A program made the translations under genes and the position numbers. From contig JADLKP010000001.1 of the NCBI GenBank assembly GCA_016838945.1, forward strand, positions 1,608 through 65,607: DNA of 64,000 nt, written 5' to 3'. This document shows positions 36,149-58,579 of the stretch, piece by piece. Every line of letters begins with the position of its first letter. The stretch's first letter is position 1. The notes under the pieces were generated by a model, which did not search any database, was not told the DNA's origin, and worked only from the letters and a program-made list of their open reading frames with translations. This stretch comes from Methanobrevibacter sp. (GTDB taxonomy: Archaea; Methanobacteriota; Methanobacteria; Methanobacteriales; Methanobacteriaceae).

Positions 36149-36210
36149 AAAACGGTTATTTAGGGATTGTCCACTATATGAAACAAATTTCAATTTTTAG
36201 TATATAATTT

Positions 36211-36368
36211 CTATACTGTTATGCCAATGCCAACATGAAGTTGGTTAAAAAGAACCAAAAATTGCATAATCCTGATTCACCTCTCTGATTGGGGACGTTA
36301 AAGGTGGTGATGTTGTAAAAGAGGTTAAAGAACTTAGTTATGTTGATGCACAAACTAGGTTGTTTTAA
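36211..36368 (+). pseudogene. C-terminal remnant of a DUF1848-like protein
   Basis: LYCYANANMKLVKKNQKLHNPDSPL[frameshift]IGDVKGGDVVKEVKELSYVDAQTRLF. Confidence 0.6.
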
Positions 36369-37555
36369 ATGCTTCTAAATGGATATATTCCATTTTTTTC
36401 ATAACTGTTCTTAAGCCAGTATGTGAAAATAGGGTCTGTAATTTGATATTTGTCATTTGCATATTCAATTAAATCATAATCTAGAAGGCGATTTAGTGGT
36501 CGGTTTAGTGATCCGCTGGTTACTTTGAGGAAATTTGCTACTTCTATTCTTTTTTTGGGACTTTCAAGTAGTGAAATTATGATTTTTTGTTCTTGAAATG
36601 TTAATTTAGACCACATATATATGAAATGGATAGCAAGATAATCAATCGAATCCTTGAATAATTCAATGATATTATTTTCAGTTAATTTTATGTTTTCTGG
36701 AAGATATTTTGCAAATATGTTGATGTAATATGGAATTCCACGTGTACATTTGTAAAATCTTTCAAATCCATCATCATCGAGCTGTATGTTTCTTGTCATT
36801 GATTTAATATAGTTTTCAGTGGTTTGTTTTGAAAATGGTTGAATTTCAATTGTCAGCATCCGTCCTCCAAATGCTCCTTTATTGCCATTCAAATCATTTA
36901 TTAAACTATCTTTTAAGCTCATGCTTCCGCAGAATAGGTATGCAACATTTTTTTGTGTTTGGATGAAACTGCGCATATACCATAAAAATCCATTCAGCTC
37001 ATCACCCAAATCTTTCATTAATTGGATTTCATCAATGAATATGAAAACTCCTTTCAGTTTATCTTTATTGTCTTCATAAATTTTTTGAGGTAATTCCATT
37101 ACAAATTCCGCTAATTTTTCATAATTGTCTTCCCTTTCGAATATTGGAATTGGAATGTGTTCGTAGGATAAAAGTTTATCTATTTTGAAATTTTTTGTTT
37201 TAAAATATTTTTCTATTTGCTTGTTGATTGTTTTTAAGCCAAATTCTTTGGATGATTTGATAATTGTGTCATAAATTATTTTAATTATGCTTGCTCTTGT
37301 GAGGTTTTTCTGTTGGTATGCATCGCTTCTGGATAAGTCGATGTCCACAACCAAATATTCTCTTTTGAACTTGCTTTTGATTTTTTTGATGAGTGCTGTT
37401 TTTCCAACTCCTCTAATCCCTGTTAGAAGTATTGTGGGTGCGGAATTGAATTCAGTGCTAATTAATAAGTTTGATAATATGTTGATTTCATCTGTTCGGT
37501 TGAAAAATTGTGTTTCGGTTAAATTTGTGTCTGTTATGCTTGCAATTTCATCCAT
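36365..37555 (-). CDS. Archaeal ATPase (ATPase_2-like) with C-terminal winged helix
   Basis: FFNRTDE, GIRGVGKT, IDEIQ, CGS and TRGIPYYI motifs. Confidence 0.88.
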   Translation of the reverse strand: MDEIASITDTNLTETQFFNRTDEINILSNLLISTEFNSAPTILLTGIRGVGKTALIKKIKSKFKREYLVVDIDLSRSDAYQQKNLTRASIIKIIYDTIIKSSKEFGLKTINKQIEKYFKTKNFKIDKLLSYEHIPIPIFEREDNYEKLAEFVMELPQKIYEDNKDKLKGVFIFIDEIQLMKDLGDELNGFLWYMRSFIQTQKNVAYLFCGSMSLKDSLINDLNGNKGAFGGRMLTIEIQPFSKQTTENYIKSMTRNIQLDDDGFERFYKCTRGIPYYINIFAKYLPENIKLTENNIIELFKDSIDYLAIHFIYMWSKLTFQEQKIIISLLESPKKRIEVANFLKVTSGSLNRPLNRLLDYDLIEYANDKYQITDPIFTYWLKNSYEKNGIYPFRSI

Positions 37556-38285: not shown

Positions 38286-41282
38286 GTGAAAAATATCATG
38301 ATAAATAAAAAATTATGGGCTGCACTAATAATTTTGACTTTAGTGTCATTATCTATAGGTGCGGTTTCAGCAGCAGATGCCGAATCACAGGCAAACGATG
38401 ATATTTCAATTGCAACATCCCAAGATTCAAGTCAAATGGGTGGGAATGAATTAATTCAAGAAGATGCAAAGACAGATGAATCTACGGATATTCTCTCTTC
38501 ATCCGATGACGAAGAGATATTGGCTGGAGATATGGGAATATCTGTAGTAGGAGGACAAAAGGAATCATATGATGTTGGCGAAGAGGTATACCTTAAATTA
38601 GGTACTGAGCAAAGCAGCTACACTCCCGCTGATATTTACATTCAAGTTCAAGGCGGAGGATATACTGACAATCCTGTAGGAACATATTCACAGGCAACCA
38701 GCGCAACAGGAGTGCCATATACATTCGACACTCCTGGAAATGTAAGCCTAAGATTTGTTCAAGTGCATTACAGCACTTATTACTTTTCAGATTACATAAC
38801 CTTCAATGTAGTCGAAGCGGGACCAAGTGTCGCACCTGGAACATTCACTGATTTGAAATCATTGATAGACAGAAGTGAAGGGGTTTTAGAGCTTCCATAT
38901 GATTTCACCTACGATCCTGAATATGATTCAGGATATGTGGATGGAATATTGGTGGATAAGGACATTACCATAAAAGGCAACGGCCATATAATCAATGCTC
39001 TAAAGCTTGCTAAAATATTTGATGTCTACAAGGCAAATGTAGTTTTGGAAGGTGTCACTTTAGCCAATGGCAAATCCAATAATGGCGGGGCAATCATTGT
39101 TTCCAATAGCATTACCAGCTTGCTTCTTAAGGATTCAGTCATCAAGGACAGTTCCAGCAATCAGGGTGGTGCAATCCATGTCATGGGAGGTACCTTAACC
39201 GTTGAAAACACTACATTCACCAATAACTCAGCTAATTGCGGCGGTGCAATTTACCATAATGCACATTCATCCACTTTGAATGTTAAGGATTCAAGCTTCG
39301 AGGCAAATAAGGCAACATCCACCGGCACTGCTGGCGGTGCAGGTGCAATCCATATGAATTCAGGCAAATTGAATGTTGAAAATACCGATTTCAATGATAA
39401 CACTGCCGTTTCAAACGGCGGTGCAATAAATGTTTTCAATTTCGCAAATGCCATAAATGTAACCGGTTCCAGATTCAACAGGAACTCTGCAAGCGATGGC
39501 GGAGCAATCTATGCTCATCTAACATCCTGTGACATATCAATCAATGATTCCAATTTCACAGAAAACTCCGCTAACGGTCAAGGCGGAGCAGCATACCTTC
39601 AAGGAGCTGGAATAACAAGCGCTTTTGACAATGTCAAGTTTGCCGATAACTCTGCAAGCTATGGCGGTGCATTTGCAAATAAGCTCTCAAGCTCAACAAT
39701 TGAAAAATCAATCTTTGAAGGCAACACTGCAAGCAATCAGGGTGGTGCAATCTATGCAAGCGGAAAAGTGACCGTCAACGAATCCTCATTTGCAGGCAAT
39801 CAGGCAAGCTCAGACTATAATATGCATCAGATTGTCGAAAATGCCATCAGCATAGAAAACTCTAACATAACAGTTCAAGCTCCAGATTATAATGTTAAGG
39901 AAAGCTATGAAAACGGTGAAGACATTGTGATTTCAGGCACTTTCGAATCAGGAATCACAAATCAGCCATTGGCATTGGCATATTCCTTAAATGGAAGTGA
40001 TGCAAGCGCATCAGTCGATAAAAACATCTTCAGCATTGACTTAGGCAATGCATTGAAATATGGCGACTACACAATTTCAATCAAGTCATTCACTGATGAT
40101 GCAGGAAACTCCTACCTCTTTGAGCCAGTTGAAAAGGCTTTCACAGTCAAAAGGGAAGTCAGGACTGCAGCTGATCTTCAAGCATTGATTGACAATGCAG
40201 AGGAAGGTGCCATAATTGAATTGGGCAACTATTCATTTGAAAACATTTCCAATGTTAAGATTACCAAGAATGTGACAATCAAAGGAAGCGAAGACACTAG
40301 CATTTCATCTGCCGGTGACGGAAATCCAATCTTCATTGTTCCGGCTAAATCCGAAAACGGCCCAGATAGCGTAAACATCACTGGCATTGACTTTAAGGTA
40401 AAAAATGGAGATGTGATCGTTAAGGCAACTGCAGACAACGACACCAATCCATTGTCCATTGACACTCAAGCAATCAGCATTACAGGCAACACTATCGAAG
40501 CTGCTGATGAAGATGTAGTGCCTGAATCCGTCATTGTATTGAAACTTGAGTCTGAAAGAGGAGTCCTTGCTCCAACCAATGACATTGTCATTTCAGGAAA
40601 TGCAATGGATGCAGGAATAAACCCATTCGACTTTGACGTGACAAGTGTAGTCTCAGGAGGTGATGTGAACATTCCTGCTGGTCCTGCTAAAGCAGATAGA
40701 ATAGAGACTCAAATTGTCTACGAAAACATGACAAGCACTGCAGTGGACGTTGATACTGACGGAAGGGTAGGCAAATACTTCTACATTACTTTAAAGGACA
40801 AAAACAACAACCTATTGAAAAACAAACCTGTGCAAATCGGATTCAATGGTAACGTATACGACAGAGTGACTGATGAAAACGGTCAGGCAAGACTCCAAAT
40901 CAACCTCAAGAACGCAGGAACCTACACATTCGCTGTAAGCTACCTCGGTGATGACGAGTACAACGGATCATTCATCGTTGCAAAAATCGTTGTAAGCAAA
41001 CAGAAAGGAAGCCTAACCGTTCCTAACAAATCCTACAAGGCAAGCGCAACAAGCAAAACATTGACCGCAACATTCAAATCAGCTAGCGGAAAATTAGTGA
41101 AAGGCAAGAAAGTCACATTCACCGTTAACGGCAAGACCTACTCTGCCACCACCAATGCTAAAGGAGTTGCAACTGTCAAGGTAAGCCTAAGCAAAAAAGG
41201 AACCTACAGCTTCACAGCCAAGTTTGCTGGAAACAACATGTATGCAGCAATGAGCAAAACTGCAAAGCTTACTATAAATTAA
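38286..41282 (+). CDS. Adhesin-like protein (signal peptide, GGAI beta-helix repeats, C-terminal Ig-like domains)
   Basis: Repeated N.A..GGAI motifs; TDENGQA and TNAKGVA Ig-like repeats. Confidence 0.92.
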   Translation: MKNIMINKKLWAALIILTLVSLSIGAVSAADAESQANDDISIATSQDSSQMGGNELIQEDAKTDESTDILSSSDDEEILAGDMGISVVGGQKESYDVGEEVYLKLGTEQSSYTPADIYIQVQGGGYTDNPVGTYSQATSATGVPYTFDTPGNVSLRFVQVHYSTYYFSDYITFNVVEAGPSVAPGTFTDLKSLIDRSEGVLELPYDFTYDPEYDSGYVDGILVDKDITIKGNGHIINALKLAKIFDVYKANVVLEGVTLANGKSNNGGAIIVSNSITSLLLKDSVIKDSSSNQGGAIHVMGGTLTVENTTFTNNSANCGGAIYHNAHSSTLNVKDSSFEANKATSTGTAGGAGAIHMNSGKLNVENTDFNDNTAVSNGGAINVFNFANAINVTGSRFNRNSASDGGAIYAHLTSCDISINDSNFTENSANGQGGAAYLQGAGITSAFDNVKFADNSASYGGAFANKLSSSTIEKSIFEGNTASNQGGAIYASGKVTVNESSFAGNQASSDYNMHQIVENAISIENSNITVQAPDYNVKESYENGEDIVISGTFESGITNQPLALAYSLNGSDASASVDKNIFSIDLGNALKYGDYTISIKSFTDDAGNSYLFEPVEKAFTVKREVRTAADLQALIDNAEEGAIIELGNYSFENISNVKITKNVTIKGSEDTSISSAGDGNPIFIVPAKSENGPDSVNITGIDFKVKNGDVIVKATADNDTNPLSIDTQAISITGNTIEAADEDVVPESVIVLKLESERGVLAPTNDIVISGNAMDAGINPFDFDVTSVVSGGDVNIPAGPAKADRIETQIVYENMTSTAVDVDTDGRVGKYFYITLKDKNNNLLKNKPVQIGFNGNVYDRVTDENGQARLQINLKNAGTYTFAVSYLGDDEYNGSFIVAKIVVSKQKGSLTVPNKSYKASATSKTLTATFKSASGKLVKGKKVTFTVNGKTYSATTNAKGVATVKVSLSKKGTYSFTAKFAGNNMYAAMSKTAKLTIN

Positions 41283-41429: not shown

Positions 41430-42041
41430 TCATAATTTTCTCCTTCTGCCAACCACTTTGCCGAATTGATTGCTCTCTTTGATCAAGTCACCATCGATAT
41501 AGTACTTAGGCTTTCCATACATTCCTTCCCTTATGTAGTTGCCCTCTATTCTATAAGCTGGCCTTCCGAATCGGTTATTTTCCCTGATTATGTCTCCATC
41601 GATATAGTATTTTGGTTTTCCGCAGATTCCTTCAAACATATAGTTTCCTTCTGTAGACACTGATGGCTTTCCGAACATTCCTTCTGAAATTACTTCTTTT
41701 CCATTTTCTTTAATTTCATAAGTTTCTACAAGCTCTTCCATTTCCTCTTCAGGGAAAATCATTTTAGACTCCCTGATGGACTTTAGAGGATTATAATCCT
41801 TATGGATCGCACTTTCTGATTCCATTTCCTCTTCTGCAGCTATTTTGTCCTTTATAGGTGAATTGATTCTTTCAAGGTAATCGTTATAGGATTCGCCTTT
41901 TAATGGTTCGTATTTCTTTCTTGAGTCCTTGTTGAAATTTTCTCTCCTTTGCTTGTACTCTCTTAAGTCAATGCCGCATTTTATGCAGAACTTCTGGTCC
42001 TTATCCATTAGTTCAGATCCACAGTTGAAACAGTAGTTCAT
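41430..42041 (-). CDS. Zinc-ribbon protein with C-terminal ~14-aa Gly/Tyr repeats
   Basis: CFNCG..KFCIKCG; repeats EG..GKP.Y.I(D/E)G(D/N).I. Confidence 0.8.
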   Translation of the reverse strand: MNYCFNCGSELMDKDQKFCIKCGIDLREYKQRRENFNKDSRKKYEPLKGESYNDYLERINSPIKDKIAAEEEMESESAIHKDYNPLKSIRESKMIFPEEEMEELVETYEIKENGKEVISEGMFGKPSVSTEGNYMFEGICGKPKYYIDGDIIRENNRFGRPAYRIEGNYIREGMYGKPKYYIDGDLIKESNQFGKVVGRRRKL

Positions 42042-42147
42042 ATTATCCCCTTTGCCTTTTCTATATTTATGCTTATTTATGCATTTGAATTATTTAAAAG
42101 TTTATTTATCTTTTGGAATATGAAATTTTGAAATAATTATTTTATAA

Positions 42148-42247
42148 AAATTGATCTTTTGATTAAAGGATAGGAAGGGGGAAATCCAATAATAAATTGA
42201 TCTTTTGATTAAAGGATAGGAAGGGGGAAATCCAATAATAAATTGAT
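42148..42247. repeat. 46-bp tandem duplication
   Basis: Units at 42148 and 42194, partial at 42240. Confidence 0.9.
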
Positions 42248-42427
42248 GGAAGAAAGAATCATTGAATTGAATGAGCTATTGGAGAAAAAGCAGGTAGTGA
42301 GATAAAGAGGCATATAAATTATTGTAAAGGAATAGAGAAGGCATATCGTGACAAGCTTGATGAATACTTTGATAAGATAGTCAGGCTTGAAAAGGAAAAC
42401 TTTCTCTTGAAGTATAGGATCCAAAAA

Positions 42428-42560
42428 CCTTAATCATCAACCTTAATCATCAACAGCTTGATTTTTTTATTTTTAATTAAAATAGTTTAAATAATGAAAT
42501 AAACAATTTAAAGGATTTAAAAAAATTAATCATCAACCAAATGATATCTTAATCATCAAC
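42428..42560. repeat. Four direct copies of TTAATCATCAAC
   Basis: At 42430, 42443, 42526 and 42549. Confidence 0.85.
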
Positions 42561-42696
42561 TACTGAACATCTGATTTTAAATATAATTGCAAGCTACATA
42601 ATGAAAAATTCATCCTGTAATATTATATGATGAAAATTGCATTACATATTGTCAAAAAGAGTTATATTGAAATTTTTGGTTTTGGTAAATTTATGA

Positions 42697-42753
42697 AAAG
42701 TAGTTCGGCAGATTTTGTAAAAGTAGTTCGGTGAATTTGTGGAAAGTAGTTCG
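42697..42753. repeat. Three copies of AAAGTAGTTCG with 23-bp period
   Basis: At 42697, 42720 and 42743. Confidence 0.85.
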
Positions 42754-42771
42754 TTTATGTAAATTTGTATC

Positions 42772-42821
42772 ATGACCTATTTTATTGCAAAACTTTATAT
42801 ATTTTTAAGGTCATAATATGA
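42772..42821 (+). promoter_or_regulatory. Island operon promoter: TATA box flanked by inverted ATGACCT/AGGTCAT
   Basis: ATGACCT 42772-42778, TTTATATA 42794-42801, AGGTCAT 42808-42814. Confidence 0.5.
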
Positions 42822-42845
42822 TTACTTAAAAATTGGGGGATAAAA

Positions 42846-43169
42846 ATGAATAATCTATATGGTGAACGTATTAAAAATCTAAGGGAGGAACATAAATATA
42901 CTCAAAAGCAAGTAGCTGACTTTTTAGAAATTGATCAAAGCAATCTATCTAAAATTGAGCTTGGAAAAAGAACAATAAGCATGGATTTAATAGAGGAATT
43001 ATGTTCATTGTTTAATTGTTCAGAAGAATATATTTTAGGTGAATCAGATGAGTATACACCTTCCAATATAGCATTTCGTAAGAATAAAAAGATGGATTTA
43101 AATGTAATCGCTCAAATCAATGAAACTATGGGTTATATAAAAATGTTAAGGGAGTTAGATGAGGATTAA
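42846..43169 (+). CDS. XRE-family HTH transcriptional regulator
   Basis: IKNLREEHKYTQKQVADFLEIDQSNLSKIELGKR. Confidence 0.92.
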   Translation: MNNLYGERIKNLREEHKYTQKQVADFLEIDQSNLSKIELGKRTISMDLIEELCSLFNCSEEYILGESDEYTPSNIAFRKNKKMDLNVIAQINETMGYIKMLRELDED

Positions 43170-43170
43170 T

Positions 43171-43908
43171 ATGTTGGAATATCACGAAACTAATGATTTG
43201 GCATTGTCTTTAAGAAGGCAATGGGGTATTGATGATTACAGCCCTATAGATATTTTTTCTTTAGCTTTAGAAAAAATAAAGAATCTTACAATTATTTGGA
43301 TGAAAATAGATAAGGATATAAGCGGGGCTTGTTCTAAAAATGATGGAGATTCTGTTGTTGTAATTAATTCTATTCACTCCAAGGGCAGACAGAATTTTAC
43401 ATTGGCACATGAGATATACCATTTATTATATGATGATTCCAATAACCAGTTCTTTTGTGCTGATGATGATAATGATGAAGTCGAAGAGGAAGCAAACAAT
43501 TTTGCATCTTGTCTTTTGATGCCAATGCCTGCTTTAAGAGAGTTTAAAAGAGAAAATGTTAGGGAGAAATGGACAATTAAAAATATTATTAAATGTGAAC
43601 AATGGTTTGCCATCAGCCATAAAAGTATGTTGTACCGTTTAAGACGTGAAAAAGATATTAGTTTATATGATTTTGAGAGATTTAAATATGGTGTTAAAGG
43701 TAATGCTCTTAGATTAGGTTATGATTTGGATTTATATGAACCTTCAGATGAAAATAAGCAATATTATGCCGTAGGACATTTAATCCCTCTTGTTGAAAAG
43801 ATTCATTCTAAAGGAAAAATCTCCACTGGACTAAAAAATGAAATTTTAAACAGTAATTTTAGGTCAGATATGGTTTATGACTTGAAGGAAGATTATTTCT
43901 TTGATTGA
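43171..43908 (+). CDS. ImmA/IrrE-family metallopeptidase
   Basis: RQNFTLAHEIYHLL (HExxH), EEEANNFASCLLMP; ATG 1 nt after the XRE stop. Confidence 0.9.
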   Translation: MLEYHETNDLALSLRRQWGIDDYSPIDIFSLALEKIKNLTIIWMKIDKDISGACSKNDGDSVVVINSIHSKGRQNFTLAHEIYHLLYDDSNNQFFCADDDNDEVEEEANNFASCLLMPMPALREFKRENVREKWTIKNIIKCEQWFAISHKSMLYRLRREKDISLYDFERFKYGVKGNALRLGYDLDLYEPSDENKQYYAVGHLIPLVEKIHSKGKISTGLKNEILNSNFRSDMVYDLKEDYFFD

Positions 43909-44518
43909 AATTCTTGTTTTTGTAAAGGGGAGGGATTATTTGATTGATAAAATAATTTTTTATGATGCTGATTTTTTAATTTGCTTTTTGACAATAGGAG
44001 AAACTTTCATTTTAAAAAAAGCTTTTAATGAAATTATAGTTCCTATGCAAGTTTTTAAGGAATTGACTAGGAAAAAATCTCCTAATATAGTAAAGGAAAC
44101 AATCATCGATTTAAGGGATTCAGGTTTTGTTAAAGTCCCTGTTATAAAATCTAATTCTAGAGTAAATATAGCTTATAGGGCTATTAAAAATGGGTACTGG
44201 CATGAAGATTTTAAAAAGTTAGGTAAAGGTGAATCCGCAGCCCTTGCATTTGCTATAGAAAGGGAAGGGGTTATTGCATCCAATAATTTTTATGACATTA
44301 AGGATTATGTTGATAAGTATGAATTGCCTTTGCTTACCACATCATATTTTCTGGCTTTAGCATTTGATAAAGATATTATAGATTATGATGAAGCTTGTGA
44401 TTTGTATTATAGGATGATTGAGAAAGAAAGGGGTATGCCTTGCAGTAGTTTTGAGGAGTATTATAATTCTTTATATAAAGAGGATACTGAAAATTTTGGT
44501 TTTAGGTTGTTTGAATAA
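43901..44518 (+). CDS. PIN-like domain protein
   Basis: FYDADFL, VFKEL and LGKGESAALAFA..IASNN motifs. Confidence 0.75.
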   Translation: MIEILVFVKGRDYLIDKIIFYDADFLICFLTIGETFILKKAFNEIIVPMQVFKELTRKKSPNIVKETIIDLRDSGFVKVPVIKSNSRVNIAYRAIKNGYWHEDFKKLGKGESAALAFAIEREGVIASNNFYDIKDYVDKYELPLLTTSYFLALAFDKDIIDYDEACDLYYRMIEKERGMPCSSFEEYYNSLYKEDTENFGFRLFE

Positions 44519-44543
44519 ATCAATTTAAGAAAGAAGGTAAATC

Positions 44544-45314
44544 ATGTCAAATTTAGAAAAATTAAACAAATTATATGAAGAAGGTCAAGATTTATTAAAA
44601 ACTAGAATGGGTCATAAACCGGGAATCGCATTTCCAGAGGAGGTTAATCATGCAAAATTTGTTAAATGGAAACATAAAACATTAAGTTTTTTACAAATTA
44701 TTTCAATTGATGAATTTAGATTTAATACTTTTAAAAATGAATTGGATCATAATTATTATTATTTAGCTGAGAAAGGAGTAAGTATATTAGAGTCTATAAT
44801 TGAAGATATTGAAGATGGAACTCTTGATATAAATAGTAGTCCTAAAGCAAATTTAGATAAAATACAAATTTTAGAAGAAGTTTTAAATAATTTCCATAGG
44901 GTTGTTAGGCAATTGCGTAATAGGCATGATAACAGAACAACTTTAGAAATAAAAGATGAGTATGATGTACAAGATTTGCTTCATTCATTATTACTTATCC
45001 ATTTTGATGATGTCCGTCCTGAAGAGTATACCCCATCATATGCTGGTGCAACTAGTAGAATGGACTTTTTAATTAAGGATATTAATACAGTAATTGAAAC
45101 AAAAATGACTAGAGAAAATCTTAAGGATAAAAAACTTGGTGAAGAGTTAATAATTGATATAGAAAAATATGCAAAACACCTAGATTGTGAAAAGTTATAT
45201 TGTTTTGTATATGATCCTAAAGAGTTTATTAATAATCCTAAGGGATTAGAAAAAGATTTATCTAATAATTCTGATGAAATAGAGGTAAAAACTATAATTG
45301 TTCCTAAATATTGA
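44544..45314 (+). CDS. PD-(D/E)XK nuclease, REase_DpnII-MboI-like C-terminal domain
   Basis: EYDVQDLLHSLL..DDVRPEE.TPSYAG..SRMDFLI..VIETK. Confidence 0.75.
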   Translation: MSNLEKLNKLYEEGQDLLKTRMGHKPGIAFPEEVNHAKFVKWKHKTLSFLQIISIDEFRFNTFKNELDHNYYYLAEKGVSILESIIEDIEDGTLDINSSPKANLDKIQILEEVLNNFHRVVRQLRNRHDNRTTLEIKDEYDVQDLLHSLLLIHFDDVRPEEYTPSYAGATSRMDFLIKDINTVIETKMTRENLKDKKLGEELIIDIEKYAKHLDCEKLYCFVYDPKEFINNPKGLEKDLSNNSDEIEVKTIIVPKY

Positions 45315-46813
45315 ATTTGAGGTATTTCATGTATAATGAGGATTTAGTTAATAAAGCATACGATTATTTAAACAATGGTCAAGTTGATTTCAGTGAAAAA
45401 ATTTTAGAAAAACTTAAAGATGAAAAATTTGAATTTAAATATCAAATAGGGGCATTACTTATAGATATAGGGTCAGTTTCAAAAAATATGGACTATGTTG
45501 ATGAAGGAATAGAAATTTTTGAAGATTTAAAAGAGTCTACAAATATAAATGTTAATTATAATTTAGCTAATGGGTATTTTGCCAAATTTGTTTTAAATAA
45601 AAATAACTATTTAATTAAAGATGATCATTTACTATTTAAAGCTAAAAAATTATATAGGGAAGAAATCAATCATACACCCCCTCAAGAAAATCCAGATTTG
45701 TATATTAATTTAGCTAATACATATAATTATATTGGTAGAACAATAGATGGCTTAGAATATTATGAGAAAGTTTTAGATATTTCTAAAGATAGTAGAGCTC
45801 TAGTTAATAAAGGAATTGCTCTTTATCAATATTCATTTTTTACTAAAGATTATTTAGTAATTTTAAAAGATGCCTATAACTGTTTTAAATTAGCATTGGA
45901 AAATTCTGGATTGTATTCTGATTTTAGAGCCATTTCAGAAGAATATGTAAATATCATTGAAGAGAATTTAAATGAAGAAATTCTTAATCAAGAAATACCT
46001 GCTGATTTACAAAGACCTTCAGGGGATGAATTTGAAGGGTTTATGATTAATTTTTGTTTAGATAATAAATTATATTTAAATTTATGTAATTTCTGTCAAA
46101 GATGTGAAAATTCCATAGGAGATACTATAGTAATAGATAATATGATTGTTGAAACTAAATATGGACTTGAAGATGATCCATTTCTAATTTTATCTTCATA
46201 TTTAAATCAAATTAAAATGGATTATGTTTCAGCAAGGTTTTTGTTAATTCTATCTCAATATGAAGGCATAGATTTGGATTTCATTACTAAGAATGTTTTT
46301 ATTATTAATACACTAAACTATGAAGAAAACGATATAAGAATACAACTATTAAAAAATTCTTTCACAAATCTTTTTAATATACTAGATAAAATAGCATATT
46401 TCATTAATGATTATTTAGAAATAGGAAAATCTTCAAAAAAAGCTGATTTTCGTCATATTTGGTTTAATAGTAAAGGGAGTAAAATAAATAAAAAAATAGA
46501 ATCTTTAAATAATCCTGGTTTAAATGCTTTATATGATATTTATTTAGATTTTGAATATGGAAATGAAAAGGAATATTTAAGAAATATTCGAAATAGTTTA
46601 ACTCATAAATTTTTAAGAATTTCTTTTATAAAACTTAATGAAGAAGATAGAACTATTGAAGAGTTTACAAAGGATACTATAGAATTAGCTAAAATTGTTA
46701 AAAATGCAATTATATATTTAATTAGATTAGTTAAAGTTCATGAAGATTTTAAATATAAAAAAATAGATGGTAAAACTGTCCATCAATTAAATGCAGATTT
46801 AATTAAATTATAA
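45311..46813 (+). CDS. TPR + LA2681-like HEPN domain protein
   Basis: TPR-like NLANTYNYIGR..ALVNKG; LNLCNFC; SYLNQIKMDYVSARFLL; RNSLTH (RxxxxH). Confidence 0.75.
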   Translation: MNLRYFMYNEDLVNKAYDYLNNGQVDFSEKILEKLKDEKFEFKYQIGALLIDIGSVSKNMDYVDEGIEIFEDLKESTNINVNYNLANGYFAKFVLNKNNYLIKDDHLLFKAKKLYREEINHTPPQENPDLYINLANTYNYIGRTIDGLEYYEKVLDISKDSRALVNKGIALYQYSFFTKDYLVILKDAYNCFKLALENSGLYSDFRAISEEYVNIIEENLNEEILNQEIPADLQRPSGDEFEGFMINFCLDNKLYLNLCNFCQRCENSIGDTIVIDNMIVETKYGLEDDPFLILSSYLNQIKMDYVSARFLLILSQYEGIDLDFITKNVFIINTLNYEENDIRIQLLKNSFTNLFNILDKIAYFINDYLEIGKSSKKADFRHIWFNSKGSKINKKIESLNNPGLNALYDIYLDFEYGNEKEYLRNIRNSLTHKFLRISFIKLNEEDRTIEEFTKDTIELAKIVKNAIIYLIRLVKVHEDFKYKKIDGKTVHQLNADLIKL

Positions 46814-46832
46814 TTTTATCAAGTGATTTATT

Positions 46833-48893
46833 ATGTTAAATGAAGATAAAGATATCAATATTGGGGAAGATAGTTTAAATAGATCAAATTTTGCAAAAAA
46901 TTTAGCGGCAAATATTCAAAATTATTTTAATAGAAATGAAGTTAATAATTGTTTAACAATTGGTTTAATGGGGGAATGGGGATCAGGTAAAACTTCTCTT
47001 TTAAATATGACAGAAGAGTATCTAAAAGATTCTGATATTAAAATCATAAAATTCAATCCTTGGCTTCATTCAACTTATCATCAATTAGTAGAACAGTTTT
47101 TCGACGAATTGATAAAGGAATTTACAAACTCAAGAGATAATTCTTTAAAGGATATTTTAAAAAGATATAAATTTAAAGTAAATGAATTGGAGATACTAAA
47201 GAAGATAGCTGTTTCCGCTTCTTTGCTCTATGACCCTAAAGTAGGTAGTAGTCTTGAAAATATTTTGACTTATTCTTCTGAAGAAGAAAACTTAGCATCT
47301 CTTAAGGAAAAAATTGATGAAGAATTTGTTAATCAAAAAGTAGTATGTATTATTGATGATTTAGATAGATTATCTAGAGATGAAATCGCGGAGATGTTTA
47401 AATTAATTAAAATAATGGCAGATTTTAAAAATATGGTTTATTTAGTTGCATTTGATAAAGATTTTATTGCTGAGGCTCTAAAAATAGATTATGGTGGTGA
47501 AAGATACATCGAAAAGATTATTAATGTTCCATTGAAGGTACCATCTATAGATTACATTGAACTGAAGGATTGTTTAATTAAACACTTTAAAAGAATTTCA
47601 CGAGAATATCAAATTAGTTTAGATTTTACTAGATTAAATCAATTTTTAGATTTTCAACATAATCAATATGGTAAACGTTGTGGCATTTTATATTTTTTTA
47701 AAAATATGAGAGATATCGTTCGTTTTATTAATATTTTAGAATTTAATTTAGAATTAGTAAATGGAGAAGTAAATTTTGTAGATTTTATAGTTATCACTGC
47801 TATTCAAGTTTTTTATTCTGAAGTTTATGATAAAATAAAGTTAAATGAATTTTTATTAATTAATTATCATTATACTATCGTAGATGAGCTTACTAAAGAA
47901 ATTCTTCTAATTGAAAAATCTGAATTTGAGGAAATAGTTAATGATAACGAAAATTTAAATTTTATCCTTCAAAAGTTGTTTCCCAAAATGGAGAATATGT
48001 ATATAAGTCGACCTTCTTTTAAGTTTGAAAATAAAGATTTTGCAGATAAAAATTTATTGATTTCTCATCCTAATCATTTTAAAGCTTATTTTAAGTTAAA
48101 TAGCGTTATTAAAGATTTATCCGAAGCAGAAATTGATTTTATAGTAAATTATATTAATTCTAAAGATAATGCTTCTGTAGTTATGCAATTTATTAGATTA
48201 TTTAAGGAAAATAAATTAAGGCCATTTTTTGAAAATATTAAAAATAGATTAGATAAGATTCATAAAAATAAATTCTTCTTAAATTTCCTTTTCACAATTG
48301 ATACTCAGATGTGGGAAGATATTTTCTTTACCAATAGGGAGGAAATTGAGACTTTATGTTTAGAGTTGATTTATCAGATAGGTAACAAAGATAGGTTTAA
48401 TGTGTTGAAAGAAGTTTATCAAAATTCAAATAATATAATTTTGCTATTTAATTTATTAAATAATATAAAAAAGAGAAATTTCATGCCATATAATTATGAT
48501 GAACCTATTTTAACTGATGAAGAGATTATTGAATTAACTGAAATAACTAAAGAAAAATTCAATGATATTGAAAATAATAGTTTCATTGTTGAAAATAGGT
48601 TAAGAGAAATATTGTATATTGGTTCAGAATTACATTTAGAAAGTAAAAATGATTTTATTATTGATGAGTTGATTTCTACTTCTTCAGGAATATTTAAATT
48701 ATTAAGTTCTTTTTTATCTCTAAGGGAAAATTCTAGTTTTTTATTGCGAAATGTTGATGAATTAAATAGTTACAGAAGTGTTGATGAAATCAAAATATTA
48801 ATTGATAGTGATAATTCTATTAAGGATGAACAAATAGTTAAAAATTTTTTAGATGGGTATGAGTTGTTTAAAAGTCAAAATGATGTTGATTAA
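46833..48893 (+). CDS. KAP-family P-loop NTPase
   Basis: DSLNRSNFA, GLMGEWGSGKTS, KFNPW, IIDDLDRL and YIEKIINVP motifs. Confidence 0.9.
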   Translation: MLNEDKDINIGEDSLNRSNFAKNLAANIQNYFNRNEVNNCLTIGLMGEWGSGKTSLLNMTEEYLKDSDIKIIKFNPWLHSTYHQLVEQFFDELIKEFTNSRDNSLKDILKRYKFKVNELEILKKIAVSASLLYDPKVGSSLENILTYSSEEENLASLKEKIDEEFVNQKVVCIIDDLDRLSRDEIAEMFKLIKIMADFKNMVYLVAFDKDFIAEALKIDYGGERYIEKIINVPLKVPSIDYIELKDCLIKHFKRISREYQISLDFTRLNQFLDFQHNQYGKRCGILYFFKNMRDIVRFINILEFNLELVNGEVNFVDFIVITAIQVFYSEVYDKIKLNEFLLINYHYTIVDELTKEILLIEKSEFEEIVNDNENLNFILQKLFPKMENMYISRPSFKFENKDFADKNLLISHPNHFKAYFKLNSVIKDLSEAEIDFIVNYINSKDNASVVMQFIRLFKENKLRPFFENIKNRLDKIHKNKFFLNFLFTIDTQMWEDIFFTNREEIETLCLELIYQIGNKDRFNVLKEVYQNSNNIILLFNLLNNIKKRNFMPYNYDEPILTDEEIIELTEITKEKFNDIENNSFIVENRLREILYIGSELHLESKNDFIIDELISTSSGIFKLLSSFLSLRENSSFLLRNVDELNSYRSVDEIKILIDSDNSIKDEQIVKNFLDGYELFKSQNDVD

Positions 48894-49975: not shown

Positions 49976-51820
49976 ATGGATTATGTTGAGTTTAATGATT
50001 ATAAAATGTGGAAATACAGTATATACGAAGAAAATGATAAATTTTTATTTGATGAAATTGTAACATGTATAGAAAATGAGGCATATAGGTCAGCATCTGT
50101 CATGATATGGGTTTTATGTGCAGAATCTTTATATAAAAAGCTTAATATATTATCTGAAAGTAATAAAGCACTTAAAAATGATTTAGATAAAAAATATTTG
50201 AAAAATAAAAATGAATTTGAATTATTAAATTTAGCTAAAGATTATAATTTAGTTAATGATGTCGAATATTCTCAATTAAATACTGTTAGGGAAGCTAGGA
50301 ATAACTATGCACACCCAAATTTTGAAGAACCTAATAAAAATGAAGTTTTATCTTCATTATTTTATATTACCCATATAGTTTTATCAAAATCACCTATGTA
50401 TTCATATACTTATGGTGAAAATTTAATAAAATCTCATTTATTATCAGATCCTTATTATTTAGGTAATAAAAATGATTATCAAATAAAAGATTTTGCTTCA
50501 GACTTTTTTAAAAGAGTAGATTCCAAATATTATAAATCATATTTAAAATTATTTTTTAGACTTACTGAAGATTTGCTTAAAGAGCATAATATAAAAAATC
50601 AAATGTGTTCTAATGTAGGATTGATTTTTATAAAAAATTTAATTCTTCTAGACTCTAATTTGTTAAAAAATATTAATGAATTTTTAGATAAGTATAAGAT
50701 TACTTCTTGCAATGTTTTTTCTGAAGAGGATATTTGGCAATTATTAGATGAAAATTCTAAATTTAGAGTTTTTAATTATTCATTTGATTTTCAAAATAAT
50801 ATTTTCACTGAAGTTGAATTTTTAAATAAATATTTCCCATTATATGAAAAAGATATGTTAGAAGTAAATTTAAAAGAAAAAATTGATGAATTTATTGATA
50901 AAAATCCACCCATATTGATTTTAAATTCTTCTTTACCTATTTTTAAGTTATATGAAAAAATTATTCATGATTTTAAATCATATGATTATTATATACAAAA
51001 TGATGTAGCTAAACTTTTGAAATCAATAGATTTAACATTGTTTGAGAAAAATCAACTAGAAGAAATTGGCAGAAATTTATTACAAGCAGCGGATGGAGGG
51101 TCTTGGACTTCTAAAAGGATTTTAAATTTCTATTTGGATAATATGGGGGATGAAAAAATTCCAATTTCTCTAATTAGGGGAATTCTTTTTGAAGTATTTA
51201 TAAATGAAAACAATGAATTTAGATTTAAAGAAAAACATTCCACCAATGTTTTAATTAATGTCTTAAATGATAAATCTTGTAATTCAATGGTAGAAGACTT
51301 ATTAGAATTAATTAAACATTCAATAATAAAAAATAATTATTTTTATCATTATGATTTTGCAATTAAAAAAATTAATTTATTAAATGAACAAGAAAAGGTA
51401 AAACATTTGGAGGATTTAATTAATTCTATACAAATTTCACGATGTTATAGTATTAATAAGATTTTTGAAGAGGATAACTCTGCATTATTTATATTGCCGG
51501 AAAAAGAGATTATTTATCCTCATATTTTTAGTTGCTTGAAAAGGGAAAATAAAGCAAGATTTATAAATTTTTCTAAGGAAAATATTTTCGATTTTATAAA
51601 ATTTTTCGCTAATACAAGATATTCCCAAAAGGAATCAAAATATATATCAATAGATTTAGAATGGAATTTATTGAGCCAATTTATTGATTTAAATGATTTA
51701 AAAGAGATTTTAGAAAAAAATTTAGAAGATGATAATCTTTATTTTAAAGAAAGGTATTTGGGAGAGTATTTTTTAGATAATTATTTGTATCATATTGATG
51801 AAACTGAGGATGATATATAA
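49976..51820 (+). CDS. Hypothetical protein with N-terminal HEPN-like domain
   Basis: AYRSASVMIW..E..REARNNYAHPN (RxxxxH); remainder unrecognised. Confidence 0.6.
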   Translation: MDYVEFNDYKMWKYSIYEENDKFLFDEIVTCIENEAYRSASVMIWVLCAESLYKKLNILSESNKALKNDLDKKYLKNKNEFELLNLAKDYNLVNDVEYSQLNTVREARNNYAHPNFEEPNKNEVLSSLFYITHIVLSKSPMYSYTYGENLIKSHLLSDPYYLGNKNDYQIKDFASDFFKRVDSKYYKSYLKLFFRLTEDLLKEHNIKNQMCSNVGLIFIKNLILLDSNLLKNINEFLDKYKITSCNVFSEEDIWQLLDENSKFRVFNYSFDFQNNIFTEVEFLNKYFPLYEKDMLEVNLKEKIDEFIDKNPPILILNSSLPIFKLYEKIIHDFKSYDYYIQNDVAKLLKSIDLTLFEKNQLEEIGRNLLQAADGGSWTSKRILNFYLDNMGDEKIPISLIRGILFEVFINENNEFRFKEKHSTNVLINVLNDKSCNSMVEDLLELIKHSIIKNNYFYHYDFAIKKINLLNEQEKVKHLEDLINSIQISRCYSINKIFEEDNSALFILPEKEIIYPHIFSCLKRENKARFINFSKENIFDFIKFFANTRYSQKESKYISIDLEWNLLSQFIDLNDLKEILEKNLEDDNLYFKERYLGEYFLDNYLYHIDETEDDI

Positions 51821-52016
51821 GTTAATAAATTAATTATTTTTAAAATTTAGAATAATCAAAGTATTATTTGACTGGAAATATAATTTTACATTACTGAGAT
51901 GTGTTTTCCAAAATTTATTATAGTTTTTTGTATTTTCTTATTTTTCAAATGCTCTCTTAATATTTATTAACTATCTAAACTAAATTATAATTAGAACTAA
52001 TTGAGGAATTTTTATC

Positions 52017-52955: not shown

Positions 52956-52999
52956 TTTTTTATATAAATTTATATATCATTTAATCAAGATCTTTAAAC

Positions 53000-53851: not shown

Positions 53852-53979
53852 ATGTCTATCATTAAAATCAATTAAGTATAATTTTTTAAATTTCAGGTGT
53901 TTTTTATGGTTAAAAAAAGAAAACAGATATTAAATATCTTGATTTTATTAAGAAATAATTAAAAATGTAGGAGTTAATT

Positions 53980-55178: not shown

Positions 55179-55430
55179 GTATAAATAAAGAAAATCATTC
55201 TTAGAAAACATCATTTAACATTAGCTAAGAATATAAAAATTTCAGATCTCAGATAATTTAATTTTTTGAGAAAAGTTTTAATAAATTTAAAACGATTAAT
55301 TTATAATTTTGAAGTATTTTTTCTATTTTCACATGTTTTTTTTAAAAAATTTTATAAGTTTATAAATAGTAAACTATATATTAATTATAGTTTTAAAACA
55401 AATAGTTTTATTTATAAATAGGGGGGTTTA

Positions 55431-58564: not shown

Positions 58565-58579
58565 ATTCATGGTAATAAT

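What the first reader, a model, noticed from the sequence alone, without database searches (positions are those of the whole stretch)
42772..44518. Split XRE + IrrE peptidase + PIN module heading the defence operon
Seen: three coupled genes, an inverted repeat around the TATA box, and only 25 nt to the next defence gene. Known: CapH/CapP-type HTH+peptidase pairs de-repress CBASS after DNA damage, and XRE-IrrE proteins also act as antitoxins. Inference: a damage- or infection-triggered switch for a non-CBASS archaeal effector operon, or a three-part TA.
Basis: partly seen in the sequence, partly recalled or inferred. Interest (0 to 1): 0.7.

Follow-up and report, generated by a model that had tools for sequence, protein, structure and literature searches.

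The report
Repressor–peptidase–PIN nuclease cassette heading defence genes
A rumen methanogen carries a three-gene cassette (a DNA-binding repressor, the zinc peptidase predicted to cleave it, and a VapC-like PIN nuclease) of a kind already predicted by comparative genomics in bacteria and archaea, and here it sits in front of an interchangeable set of antiviral genes.

Summary
Three tightly packed + strand genes (XRE repressor 42846-43169, M78/ImmA-IrrE peptidase 43159/43171-43908, PIN nuclease 43940-44518) follow a promoter whose TATA box is bracketed by ATGACCT-N29-AGGTCAT. The next gene starts 25 nt after the PIN stop.

The cassette is not specific to this operon. The same trio occurs in Lachnospiraceae, Hathewaya, Acetoanaerobium, a Hymenobacter plasmid and M. 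olleyae, usually standing alone. One archaeal locus has a two-gene form with XRE fused to M78. So it is a member of the three-component HTH–COG2856–PIN toxin-antitoxin-like kind predicted in 2009 and 2017, related to RosmerTA.

The PIN keeps the VapC catalytic tetrad. The peptidase has a CapP-like cysteine-switch loop but no GAF domain. The repressor keeps an F-R pair where CapH is cut. The operator half-sites change on both arms together between lineages.

In rumen Methanobrevibacter the cargo behind the trio varies (REase/HEPN/KAP, TIR/HNH, Abi_C, PycTM), with gaps of about 25 nt, so it is probably read through from the gated promoter.

This is not a CapH/CapP member: it is co-directional with its cargo and lacks GAF. 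Verdict: real, a new archaeal member of a predicted but untested kind. Interest is moderate.

The parts
42772..42778 (+). Left operator arm, ATGACCT (half-site TGACCTA). It lies just upstream of the BRE.
   Evidence: It is identical in the window, L001/2/5, L006/7, L012 and L015, and the flank upstream of it diverges completely between these loci. TGACCT sits 14-15 nt before the TATA box in the more distant L008 and L013.
42794..42801 (+). TATA box, TTTATATA. The inferred transcription start is near 42823-42825.
   Evidence: The octamer occurs 34 times in the window against 14 expected, mostly in intergenic regions. The transcription start is inferred from the usual archaeal spacing and was not measured.
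42808..42814 (+). Right operator arm, AGGTCAT. It lies between the TATA box and the inferred transcription start.
42846..43169 (+). XRE-family repressor, 107 aa. The HTH covers residues 5-64, followed by a C-terminal helix. The A76-F77-R78 motif is conserved.
   Evidence: Pfam HTH_3 E=2.4e-14. PADLOC HTH_VI E=2.6e-15 and capH E=1e-11 over residues 1-98. R78 is nearly invariant across archaeal and bacterial partners.
43159..43908 (+). ImmA/IrrE (M78) zinc peptidase. The likely start is ATG 43171, giving 245 aa. H84-E85-x-x-H88 and E109 are the zinc-site residues. The C100-A-D-D-D loop resembles the CapP cysteine switch. The C-terminal domain is helical.
   Evidence: Pfam Peptidase_M78 E=2.4e-15; PADLOC capP E=2e-24. 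H84, H88, C100 and E109 are invariant and E85 nearly invariant (>=90%) in 40 homologues. AF2 model pLDDT is 90. Foldseek top hits are CapP 7t5t and IrrE 3dti, over about 170 columns only.
43940..44518 (+). VapC-like PIN nuclease, 192 aa, TTG start behind GGGGAGGG. The predicted catalytic residues are D9, E41, E98 and D119, and the SNN114-116 motif is present.
   Evidence: AF2 pLDDT 92. Foldseek top hits are VapC/PIN structures. The family profile hits R. felis VapC2 (3zvk) at E=0.0016, with GxGE aligned to GNND and ASNN to TNN. In 56 diverse members D9 and E98 are invariant, and E41 and D119 are conserved in 90% or more.
44470..44477 (+). Exact TTTATATA inside the PIN 3' end, 66 nt before the cargo start codon. 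It is a candidate internal promoter and weakens the co-regulation claim.
   Evidence: In L001, which has the same cargo, the sequence is TTTATACA.
44544..45314 (+). First cargo gene, carrying a DpnII-MboI-type REase domain. It starts 25 nt after the PIN stop.
   Evidence: Pfam PF18742 E=1e-56. It is conserved behind the trio in L001/L002, and a relic of its 5' end remains in L006.
45311..46813 (+). Second cargo gene, TPR + HEPN_LA2681. It overlaps the previous gene by 4 nt.
   Evidence: E=1.5e-37.
46833..48893 (+). Third cargo gene, a KAP-family P-loop NTPase that is PifA-like.
   Evidence: Pfam KAP_NTPase E=1e-45; PADLOC PifA E=5e-62.

Best explanation
Windows 42772-44518 is a self-contained, horizontally mobile three-gene cassette.

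Proposed mechanism (each step inferred unless marked):
1. The XRE protein binds the two half-sites that bracket BRE/TATA and represses its own promoter.
2. The M78 peptidase is held inactive by a cysteine-switch loop. An unknown signal activates it and it cleaves XRE, probably at F77|R78. This separates the HTH from the C-terminal helix.
3. The promoter is de-repressed and more of the VapC-like PIN nuclease is made. The PIN is the conserved output of the cassette. It acts as a toxin or abortive-infection effector and probably cuts RNA.

This is the split form of a two-gene XRE-M78 fusion plus PIN module. That kind of module is RosmerTA-like and corresponds to the predicted three-component HTH-COG2856-PIN TA.

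In rumen Methanobrevibacter, interchangeable defence genes have been inserted directly behind the PIN. They are most likely read through from the same gated promoter, so the cassette also serves as the regulatory head of a variable defence array.

What is shown: gene order, domains, catalytic residues, conservation of the cassette and its operator, variable cargo, and decay of the PIN in some lineages.
What is inferred: DNA binding, cleavage, the trigger, PIN toxicity and co-transcription of the cargo.
For: The cassette is autonomous.
- The same split trio is followed by convergent or unrelated genes in Lachnospiraceae (L016-21), Hathewaya (L025-27), Acetoanaerobium (L035) and Methanobacteriaceae L008. 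In a further Firmicute (L022-24), a Hymenobacter plasmid (L034) and M. olleyae (L030/31) it is followed by small or unclassified co-directional genes.
- A fused XRE-M78 (342 aa) plus PIN pair sits between ArgRS and a convergent gene in L013. Fused relatives P0324, P0326 and P0365 are 44-53% identical to the window's M78.

Operator.
- The block is conserved starting exactly at the left arm while the upstream flank diverges.
- Half-sites change on both arms together. Bacterial trios have TGTCATA-N26-TATGACA over the -35 region. The archaeal form is TGACCT-N29-AGGTCA around the TATA box. L008 and L013 are intermediate.
- PIN-less M. ruminantium M1 and M. olleyae (trio) use a different repeat, GGAATAT/ATATTCC, again bracketing TTTATATA.
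- The composite operator occurs once in the window.

Peptidase and substrate.
- H84, H88, C100 and E109 are invariant and E85 nearly invariant.
- C100-A-DDD parallels the CapP switch loop (C114, D117, D118).
- [A/S]-F-R is conserved in the XRE partners. CapH is cut at F82|R83.

PIN.
- The fold is VapC-like and the tetrad is complete.

Cargo.
- Five different cargo sets follow the trio, at gaps of 24-25 nt or overlapping it. L006 keeps a relic of the previous cargo gene.

Transcripts.
- Low-depth contigs from RNA-Seq-labelled libraries, some of uncertain RNA origin, span XRE/M78 (X31), M78/PIN (X25), PIN/cargo (X31, 44456-44619) and HEPN/KAP (X27).

Literature.
- The arrangement was predicted in PMC2701414 and PMC5499597. 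ImmA-type antitoxins are linked to PIN-like toxins in PMC10440598.
Against: - There is no experimental evidence for any step.
- The half-sites are 35-36 bp apart centre to centre. That is unusual for a simple XRE dimer, so the binding stoichiometry is unknown.
- All three genes share one autoregulated promoter, so some PIN is made at the basal level. Transcriptional gating alone does not explain how it is tolerated. A protein-level antidote, for example through the distinctive M78 C-terminal domain, may be needed.
- The PIN is broken in L011 (67-nt duplication) and truncated in L015/L032, and it is absent in M. ruminantium M1. XRE+M78 persist in all of these. XRE+M78 therefore have a function without the PIN.
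- An exact TATA box at 44470 could drive the cargo independently.
- The RNA evidence comes from assembled contigs at depth 2-7. Some libraries are flagged 'GENOMIC', so DNA carry-over is possible.
Confidence: 0.6

Rival explanations
1. XRE+M78 are a dedicated CapH/CapP-type transcriptional switch for the downstream defence operon. On this reading the PIN is just the first of several cargo effectors and not a partner of the switch.
For: - capH (E=1e-11) is among the top and capP (E=2e-24) the top named PADLOC hit.
- Foldseek's top hit for the peptidase is CapP 7t5t.
- The cysteine-switch loop and the F-R site are present.
- XRE+M78 persist without an intact PIN in L011, L015 and M. ruminantium M1. 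They lie upstream of Abi_C or Gabija-like genes in L011 and M1.
- Cargo follows the PIN at 24-25 nt.
Against: - CapH/CapP are reported as always upstream of, and on the opposite strand to, their operon. Here the genes are co-directional.
- The GAF domain that forms the ssDNA groove is absent.
- In every context sampled for this PIN family, XRE/M78 lie directly upstream, and several of these contexts have no defence operon behind the PIN. The PIN is therefore the conserved partner.
- The fused two-gene form has no cargo.
Confidence: 0.2
2. The cassette is a protein-level toxin-antitoxin or addiction module. M78 and/or XRE neutralise the PIN by direct binding, as the RosmerTA antitoxin does. The module stabilises the island or acts as its own abortive-infection system. 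The cargo has its own promoter and is not controlled by it.
For: - Both halves hit RmrA profiles: E=7e-11 for XRE and E=5e-18 for M78.
- NCBIfam hits the 'spr1629 family repressor/antitoxin' model.
- NetFlax links ImmA-type antitoxins with PIN-like toxins.
- The toxin gene decays while the upstream genes stay intact, which is typical of TA loci.
- The M78 C-terminal domain is conserved from bacteria to archaea within the trios.
- An internal TATA box lies at 44470.
- L006 has a 119-nt gap containing a T5 run before its cargo.
Against: - No complex was modelled or measured.
- The M78 C-terminal domain is also conserved in M. ruminantium M1, which has no PIN.
- Three unrelated cargo sets abut the PIN at 25 nt or less, which leaves no room for an intergenic promoter.
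- The internal TATA box is not conserved in L001, which has the same cargo.
- A contig from an RNA library starts upstream of that TATA box and crosses into the cargo.
Confidence: 0.15
3. The cassette is a remnant immunity region (ImmR/ImmA type) of a provirus or integrative element, and it controls mobile-element genes.
For: - ImmR/ImmA are the founding XRE+M78 pair.
- The Hathewaya copies sit next to serine recombinases and transposases.
- The Hymenobacter copy is on a mobilizable plasmid.
Against: - No integrase, capsid or conjugation genes were seen in the genes inspected around the cassette: 34.9-62.7 kb was family-scanned, not the whole window.
- No tRNA gene is present in the window.
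- Neither the archaeal nor a bacterial PIN matches anything in 50,697 phage records, and the IMG/VR scan found nothing.
- The conserved downstream partner is a PIN, not an excision or lysis module.
Confidence: 0.05

Closest known systems
Predicted three-component HTH (Xre) – COG2856/DUF955 peptidase – PIN-like TA systems (Makarova 2009, PMC2701414; Matelska 2017, PMC5499597)
   Same: The three domains, the gene order, the co-directional tight packing and the existence of both fused and split HTH-peptidase forms all match. The proposed logic also matches: the peptidase cleaves the Xre repressor and releases PIN expression.
   Different: The published class is a computational prediction with no experimental model. 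This PIN family is not captured by any Pfam model at its threshold (only 3 of 56 members hit DUF3368 at E<0.01). Here the cassette is archaeal, its operator brackets a TATA box, and it is followed by swappable defence cargo.
RosmerTA (RmrA HTH-M78 antitoxin + diverse RmrT toxins; Millman 2022; Ernits 2023, PMC10440598)
   Same: An HTH plus ImmA-type peptidase sits next to a toxin and is found in defence islands. Both halves hit RmrA profiles. A fused form exists in L013.
   Different: RmrA is one fused protein, whereas here it is split into two genes. The PIN gene lies downstream of XRE and M78. No toxicity or defence data exist for this family.
CapH/CapP (Lau 2022; Calloji 2026, PMC13228613) and IrrE/DdrO
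   Same: Both have an HTH repressor with a C-terminal helix, a conserved F-R pair where CapH is cut, and an M78 peptidase with a cysteine-switch loop followed by acidic residues. CapP and IrrE are the best structural matches.
   Different: There is no GAF domain and so no IrrE/CapP-type ssDNA groove. The genes are co-directional with the downstream genes rather than divergent from them. A PIN gene is an obligatory third partner in most loci.
VapBC type II TA
   Same: The PIN fold, the D-E-D/E-D/E tetrad and the (T/S)NN motif of VapC/FitB-type toxins are all present.
   Different: There is no VapB-type (RHH, AbrB or Phd) antitoxin. The protein is 192 aa because of an insert (about residues 49-95) and a C-terminal helical extension of about 60 aa.
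PADLOC candidates PDC-S70 (a single-gene PIN enriched in archaea, PMC12988326) and PDC-M69A/B
   Same: The PIN hits PDC-S70 profiles weakly (E=9e-9). XRE hits PDC-M69A and M78 hits PDC-M69B, the latter at E=1e-19 and including the C-terminal domain.
   Different: The PDC-S70 match is partial (profile positions 3-90 of 161). PADLOC treats the two as separate, unvalidated candidates, whereas here they form one cassette.

Membership tests
Three-component HTH–COG2856–PIN module (predicted TA) | Xre HTH, HExxH COG2856/DUF955 peptidase and a PIN-like gene, co-directional and adjacent | tested here: met
   Gaps are -11/+1 nt and 31 nt. The arrangement is conserved in more than 10 independent loci.
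Three-component HTH–COG2856–PIN module (predicted TA) | The PIN belongs to COG2405/DUF3368, or to DUF4411, PIN_14, PIN_20 or PIN_26 | tested here: inconclusive
   The database's precomputed Pfam field lists PF11848 for nearly all homologues. My own hmmscan finds DUF3368 in only 3 of 56 members at E<0.01, and none for the window protein. The PIN_14/20/26 models are not available.
Three-component HTH–COG2856–PIN module (predicted TA) | PIN toxicity, and its neutralisation or gating by the other two proteins | not testable with these tools
   Needs expression assays.
CapH/CapP | HTH repressor with a C-terminal oligomerisation helix, cleaved in the linker | tested here: inconclusive
   The capH profile matches residues 1-98 (E=1e-11). 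A-F-R is conserved and CapH is cut at F82|R83. Cleavage itself was not tested.
CapH/CapP | M78 peptidase with HExxH plus Glu and, in about a third of members, a cysteine-switch loop | tested here: met
   H84, H88, C100 and E109 are invariant and E85 nearly invariant. DDD102-104 follow the cysteine.
CapH/CapP | C-terminal GAF domain forming the ssDNA-binding groove | tested here: not met
   In the AF2 model (pLDDT 90), residues 140-240 are helical with a single short strand. Foldseek aligns only about 170 columns to 7t5t and 3dti.
CapH/CapP | Encoded upstream of, and on the opposite strand to, the regulated operon | tested here: not met
   All genes from 42846 to 48893 are on the + strand. The published rule is quoted.
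RosmerTA | RmrA: a single protein with an N-terminal HTH and an ImmA-type peptidase | tested here: not met
   It is split into two genes in the window. Both halves hit RmrA profiles. Fused orthologues exist elsewhere (L013; P0324 and others).
RosmerTA | An adjacent toxin neutralised by RmrA, and anti-phage activity | not testable with these tools
   An adjacent PIN is present. Function is untested.
VapC-type PIN toxins | PIN fold with four conserved acidic residues | tested here: met
   D9 and E98 are invariant in 56 members, and E41 and D119 are conserved in 90% or more.
VapC-type PIN toxins | A cognate small VapB antitoxin (RHH, AbrB or Phd) immediately upstream | tested here: not met
   The upstream genes are XRE and M78.
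ImmR/ImmA of integrative elements or prophages | Located at the edge of a mobile element next to integrase or excision genes | tested here: not met
   No integrase or virion genes were seen in the genes inspected between 34.9 and 62.7 kb, and no tRNA gene is present in the window. There are no phage-database matches.

The most novel reading that the evidence does not exclude
The XRE–M78–PIN cassette works as a portable, signal-gated expression head for archaeal defence islands. Unrelated defence cassettes (REase/HEPN/KAP, TIR/HNH, Abi_C, PycTM) are repeatedly captured directly behind the PIN stop codon and are induced together with the PIN when the peptidase destroys the repressor. The trigger is sensed by a GAF-less, cysteine-switch M78 and differs from the ssDNA signal of CapP/IrrE.
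Probability: 0.25. Interest if true: 0.7.

Novelty: new member of a known kind. Interest (0 to 1): 0.45.

Why it matters
Three-component repressor–peptidase–PIN modules have been predicted since 2009, but in the literature searched here I found no worked-out example. Regulators of archaeal defence genes are also little studied.

This locus gives specific, testable predictions:
- a 43-bp operator across an archaeal core promoter;
- a candidate cleavage site, F77|R78;
- a cysteine-switch residue, C100;
- a PIN catalytic tetrad.

Natural variation adds controls: split and fused forms, loci with and without the PIN, and five different cargo sets. It could show how a bacterial-type ImmR/ImmA switch is wired onto TBP/TFB-dependent transcription. 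It could also show whether defence cargo in methanogen islands is induced rather than constitutive. Rumen Methanobrevibacter are targets for methane mitigation, so how they defend against viruses has practical interest.

Tried and rejected
- Scans with the broad PIN alignments A2 and A3 failed because no stretch was conserved enough.
- With the close alignment A1, the genome-contig scan found one locus (L015, Methanobrevibacter sp. RUG020). The metagenome-contig scan found two (L032, the same arrangement as L015, and a fragment). The viral-contig scan found none. The cargo census therefore rests on the exact-protein look-ups.
- tblastn of the window PIN and of a bacterial relative against 50,697 phage records found no match.
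- Rfam on 41900-45000 found no RNA family at E<=1.
- No tRNA gene is present in the window.
- A second perfect 9-nt inverted repeat (ATTTTTAAG/CTTAAAAAT) was considered as an operator and rejected. It is not maintained as a repeat in L001 or L006.
- The 'SNN' in place of the DUF3368 'DD' first looked like an inactivated PIN. The alignment to VapC2 shows that SNN equals the VapC TNN motif and that E98 takes the place of the third acidic residue. That idea was dropped.
- The sigma-70 promoter and terminator scanner was not used because the host is an archaeon.
- RNA support is limited to low-depth Logan contigs. No raw-read stranded data were available.
Full report
**1. What is in the sequence**

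The window is AT-rich and comes from a rumen-type Methanobrevibacter. The only hit among species-representative genomes is an uncultured Methanobrevibacter sp. RUG020. Close homologues are labelled Methanobacteriaceae or Methanobrevibacter.

Six + strand genes run with minimal spacing from 42846 to 48893:
- XRE, 42846-43169;
- M78 peptidase, 43159-43908;
- PIN, 43940-44518;
- a DpnII-MboI-type REase-domain protein, 44544-45314;
- a TPR + HEPN_LA2681 protein, 45311-46813;
- a KAP NTPase that is PifA-like, 46833-48893.

Two starts need correcting.
- All PIN homologues begin MIDKIIFYD. This corresponds to TTG 43940 behind GGGGAGGG, not 43901.
- The M78 homologues are 245 aa, which points to ATG 43171, 1 nt after the XRE stop.

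The 25-nt gap to the fourth gene is exact.

Upstream, ATGACCT (42772-42778) and AGGTCAT (42808-42814) bracket TTTATATA (42794-42801). GGGGG at 42835-42839 serves the ATG at 42846.

**2. Is the inverted repeat more than chance?**

Taken alone, only weakly. 127 of 2000 shuffles of the 120-nt upstream region reach a 10/11 match. The composite TGACCT-N24-34-AGGTCA occurs once in 64 kb against 0.04 expected.

The comparative evidence is stronger.
- In four diverged relatives (L001/2/5, L006/7, L012, L015) the conserved block begins exactly at the left arm. The sequence upstream of it is unrelated between loci. Both arms are invariant while the spacer takes substitutions.
- In the more distant L008 (PIN 53% identical) the arms are TGACCT and AGGACA. 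In L013 (39%) they are TGACCT and ATGACA. TGACCT lies 14-15 nt before the TATA box in both.
- Three bacterial trios (Lachnospiraceae L016, Firmicute L022, Hathewaya L025) carry TGTCATA-N26-TATGACA over the -35 element. Their spacers are unrelated to each other.
- The half-site family is therefore TG[A/T]C[C/A]TA. The two arms change together between lineages. This is expected for the site of a symmetric protein whose specificity drifts.
- XRE–M78 cassettes in M. ruminantium M1 (no PIN) and M. olleyae (trio) use a different repeat, GGAATAT/ATATTCC, again bracketing TTTATATA.

I take the repeat to be the operator. With usual archaeal spacing the transcription start would be near 42824. That places the right arm between the TATA box and the start, and the left arm just upstream of the BRE. 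The arms are 36 bp apart centre to centre, so the stoichiometry of binding is open.

**3. The three proteins**

*XRE (107 aa).*
- The HTH covers residues 5-64 (HTH_3 E=2e-14).
- The best PADLOC hit is HTH_VI (E=2.6e-15). The capH profile matches residues 1-98 at E=1e-11.
- An alignment with partners from archaeal and bacterial trios shows a conserved [A/S]-F-R (A76-F77-R78), with R78 nearly invariant. A helix follows it.
- E. coli CapH is cleaved between F82 and R83, at the start of its dimerisation domain. I infer by analogy that F77|R78 is the cut site.

*M78 peptidase.*
- Peptidase_M78 E=2e-15; PADLOC capP E=2e-24 over the peptidase domain.
- In 40 homologues H84, H88, C100 and E109 are invariant and E85 is nearly invariant.
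- C100 lies between HExxH and the third zinc ligand and is followed by D102-D104. In CapP the autoinhibitory cysteine-switch loop has C114 followed by D117 and D118 in the same position. The AF2 model has its only internal low-confidence stretch there.
- Foldseek ranks CapP (7t5t, E=1.5e-7) and IrrE/PprI first, but over about 170 columns only.
- Residues 140-240 are helical, so there is no GAF domain. In IrrE and CapP, ssDNA binds in the groove between the peptidase and GAF domains. The ssDNA or DNA-damage trigger cannot simply be carried over to this protein.
- The C-terminal domain is conserved between the archaeal and bacterial trios.

*PIN (192 aa).*
- The AF2 model has pLDDT 92. The top PDB matches are VapC/PIN structures: 1v96, VapC4 5h4g and VapC11 6a7v, with TM-scores of 0.65-0.70 on the target.
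- The family comprises 785 clusters at 50% identity with E<=1e-3, nearly all 175-200 aa and matched over the full length.
- No Pfam model reaches its threshold, although the database's precomputed field lists DUF3368.
- The profile of 56 members hits R. felis VapC2 (3zvk) at E=0.0016. GxGE98 aligns to GNND and ASNN-x-x-D119 aligns to TNN-x-x-E.
- D9, E41, E98 and D119 thus occupy the four VapC catalytic positions (positions recalled from Shigella VapC, my own knowledge). In 56 members D9 and E98 are invariant, and E41 and D119 are conserved in 90% or more. The enzyme is probably active.

**4. The cassette elsewhere**

Look-ups of PIN relatives gave the following.

| Loci | Organism or source | Upstream partners | What follows the PIN |
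|---|---|---|---|
| L001/L002 | rumen metagenome | XRE + M78 | DpnII-MboI, HEPN, then in L001 also GIY-YIG, PycTM |
| L006/L007 | rumen metagenome | XRE + M78 | SEFIR/TIR + HNH_5 |
| L011 | rumen metagenome | XRE + M78 | Abi_C (PIN gene frameshifted) |
| L012 | rumen metagenome | XRE + M78 | a 309-aa protein + PycTM |
| L008 | Methanobacteriaceae | XRE + M78 | convergent gene |
| L013 | archaeal metagenome | fused XRE-M78 (342 aa) | convergent gene; ArgRS lies upstream |
| L015/L032 | Methanobrevibacter sp. RUG020 | XRE + M78 | convergent gene (PIN truncated after about residue 67) |
| L030/L031 | M. olleyae | XRE + M78 | a 130-aa ORF |
| L016-21 | Lachnospiraceae | XRE + M78 | convergent HSP90 |
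| L022-24 | a Firmicute | XRE + M78 | a 142-aa gene (weak DUF6290 hit) |
| L025-27 | Hathewaya | XRE + M78 | convergent recombinase |
| L034 | Hymenobacter plasmid | XRE + M78 | co-directional small genes (first annotated DUF2188) |
| L035 | Acetoanaerobium | XRE + M78 | unrelated gene |

- In every one of these contexts, XRE and M78 (or their fusion) lie directly upstream of the PIN.
- Many have no co-directional defence gene after it. The PIN is the conserved third partner and the cassette is autonomous and mobile.
- This is the arrangement predicted as a three-component TA by Makarova et al. 2009 and Matelska et al. 2017.
- The fused form is RosmerTA-like. NetFlax also linked ImmA-type antitoxins to PIN-like toxins.

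**5. What is particular here**

In the rumen Methanobrevibacter lineage the trio is constant but the genes behind it differ.
- The cargo abuts the PIN at 24-25 nt in the window, L001 and L012, and overlaps it in L011.
- L006 has the same upstream neighbour as the window, a Zn-ribbon gene. It keeps about 60 nt of the 5' end of the DpnII-MboI-like gene after the PIN stop and then carries a TIR/HNH cassette. The cargo was therefore replaced behind a stable head.
- The operator occurs nowhere else in the window. If XRE controls the cargo, it does so by read-through.
- Contigs from RNA-Seq-labelled libraries, some of uncertain RNA origin, span each junction. X31 43038-43200 spans XRE/M78. X25 43779-43975 spans M78/PIN. 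X31 44456-44619 spans PIN/cargo. X27 46668-46918 spans HEPN/KAP.
- These contigs have depth 2-7, are assembled, and come partly from libraries flagged 'GENOMIC'. They are weak support.

Against simple co-regulation, an exact TTTATATA lies at 44470-44477 inside the PIN 3' end, 66 nt before the cargo start. The only other + strand copy between 42.7 and 48.9 kb is the main promoter. It encodes the conserved SLYK and reads TTTATACA in L001. Its role is open.

**6. XRE+M78 without the PIN**

- The PIN carries a 67-nt tandem duplication in L011 and is truncated in L015/L032. XRE and M78 are intact in both.
- M. ruminantium M1 has XRE + M78 (mru_1159) and no PIN. They lie 310 nt upstream of an OLD-TOPRIM ATPase and a PIF1/UvrD-type helicase, a Gabija-like pair.
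- M78 homologues are much more numerous in Methanobrevibacter than PIN homologues: 116 against 16 in the word-indexed searches.
- This fits either decay of a toxin that leaves an orphan antitoxin, or a switch that stays useful for the cargo. It keeps the pure-regulator rival alive.

**7. Mechanism**

My best reading, with a confidence of about 0.6:
1. XRE represses its own promoter across BRE/TATA.
2. M78, released from its cysteine switch by an unknown signal, cuts XRE at F77|R78.
3. The operon is de-repressed.
4. The VapC-like PIN, and very likely the read-through cargo, rise together.

Two things remain unknown. One is whether the basal level of PIN is also held in check by protein contact, for example with the M78 C-terminal domain. 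The other is what the trigger is.

**8. Comparison, novelty and score**

- The cassette is a member of the predicted HTH–COG2856–PIN three-component kind.
- It is a split relative of RosmerTA-type modules.
- It works like CapH/CapP/IrrE in its peptidase-repressor chemistry.
- It is not a CapH/CapP member, because it is co-directional with its cargo and has no GAF domain.
- It is not a VapBC pair, because it has no VapB.

I rate it a new (archaeal) member of a known but experimentally uncharacterised kind. The head-of-variable-cargo arrangement and the GAF-less cysteine-switch peptidase are the points worth following up. Interest: 0.45.

Noticed in passing
window 42681-42753; L001, L002, L005, L006, L012 upstream regions: A 23-nt tandem repeat (core AAAGTAGTTCG) lies immediately upstream of the operator. 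There are 3 copies in the window, 2 in L002, 1 in L001/L005 and none in L006/L012, so copy number varies between otherwise near-identical promoters. Its function is unknown.
   Followed up: partly
window 42042-42680: The spacer between the Zn-ribbon gene and XRE is about 800 nt, against 211 nt in L006. It contains TTAATCATCAAC five times (42430-42562) and a direct duplication of about 46 nt (roughly 42150-42245). No Rfam match was found for 41900-45000.
   Followed up: partly
L006 2550-2670 (also L007): About 60 nt homologous to the 5' end of the window's DpnII-MboI-like cargo gene survive right after the PIN stop. A different cargo (SEFIR/TIR + HNH_5) follows, leaving a footprint of cargo replacement.
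   Followed up: yes
L011 1075-1735; L015 8001-8548; L032: The PIN gene is inactivated in two ways. L011 has a 67-nt tandem duplication that shifts the frame. L015/L032 are truncated after about residue 67 and continue into unrelated sequence. XRE and M78 stay intact in both.
   Followed up: yes
L028 (M. ruminantium M1, CP001719) 7651-12681: XRE + M78 (mru_1159) occur without a PIN, 310 nt upstream of an OLD-TOPRIM ATPase and a PIF1/UvrD-like helicase (Gabija-like), next to an MmeI-type RM gene. The promoter has a different inverted repeat (GGAATAT/ATATTCC) that again brackets TTTATATA.
   Followed up: partly
window 44470-44477: An exact archaeal TATA octamer lies inside the PIN coding 3' end, 66 nt before the first cargo gene. 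It is a possible internal promoter and is not conserved in L001.
   Followed up: partly
window 49976-60382: The defence island continues downstream. It holds a PD-T7-3-like protein (49976-51820), a Dam-type MTase + DpnII REase (52017-53851), a McrB-like AAA protein (55659-57818), a small ParE-like ORF (58280-58564) and a McrC-like DUF2357+PDDEXK_7 protein (58580-60382).
   Followed up: partly
window 34928-37555: Two archaeal ATPase genes face each other just upstream of the adhesin-like gene at 38286-41282: AAA_14+DUF4143 on the + strand and ATPase_2/KAP-like on the - strand.
   Followed up: no
window 42773-42790 vs L016 promoter: The archaeal left arm and adjacent spacer (TGACCTATTTTATTGC) resemble the Lachnospiraceae one (TGTCATATTTTATTGC) in 14 of 16 positions, although the proteins are only 30-38% identical. 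This could be chance in AT-rich DNA or a constrained extended operator.
   Followed up: no
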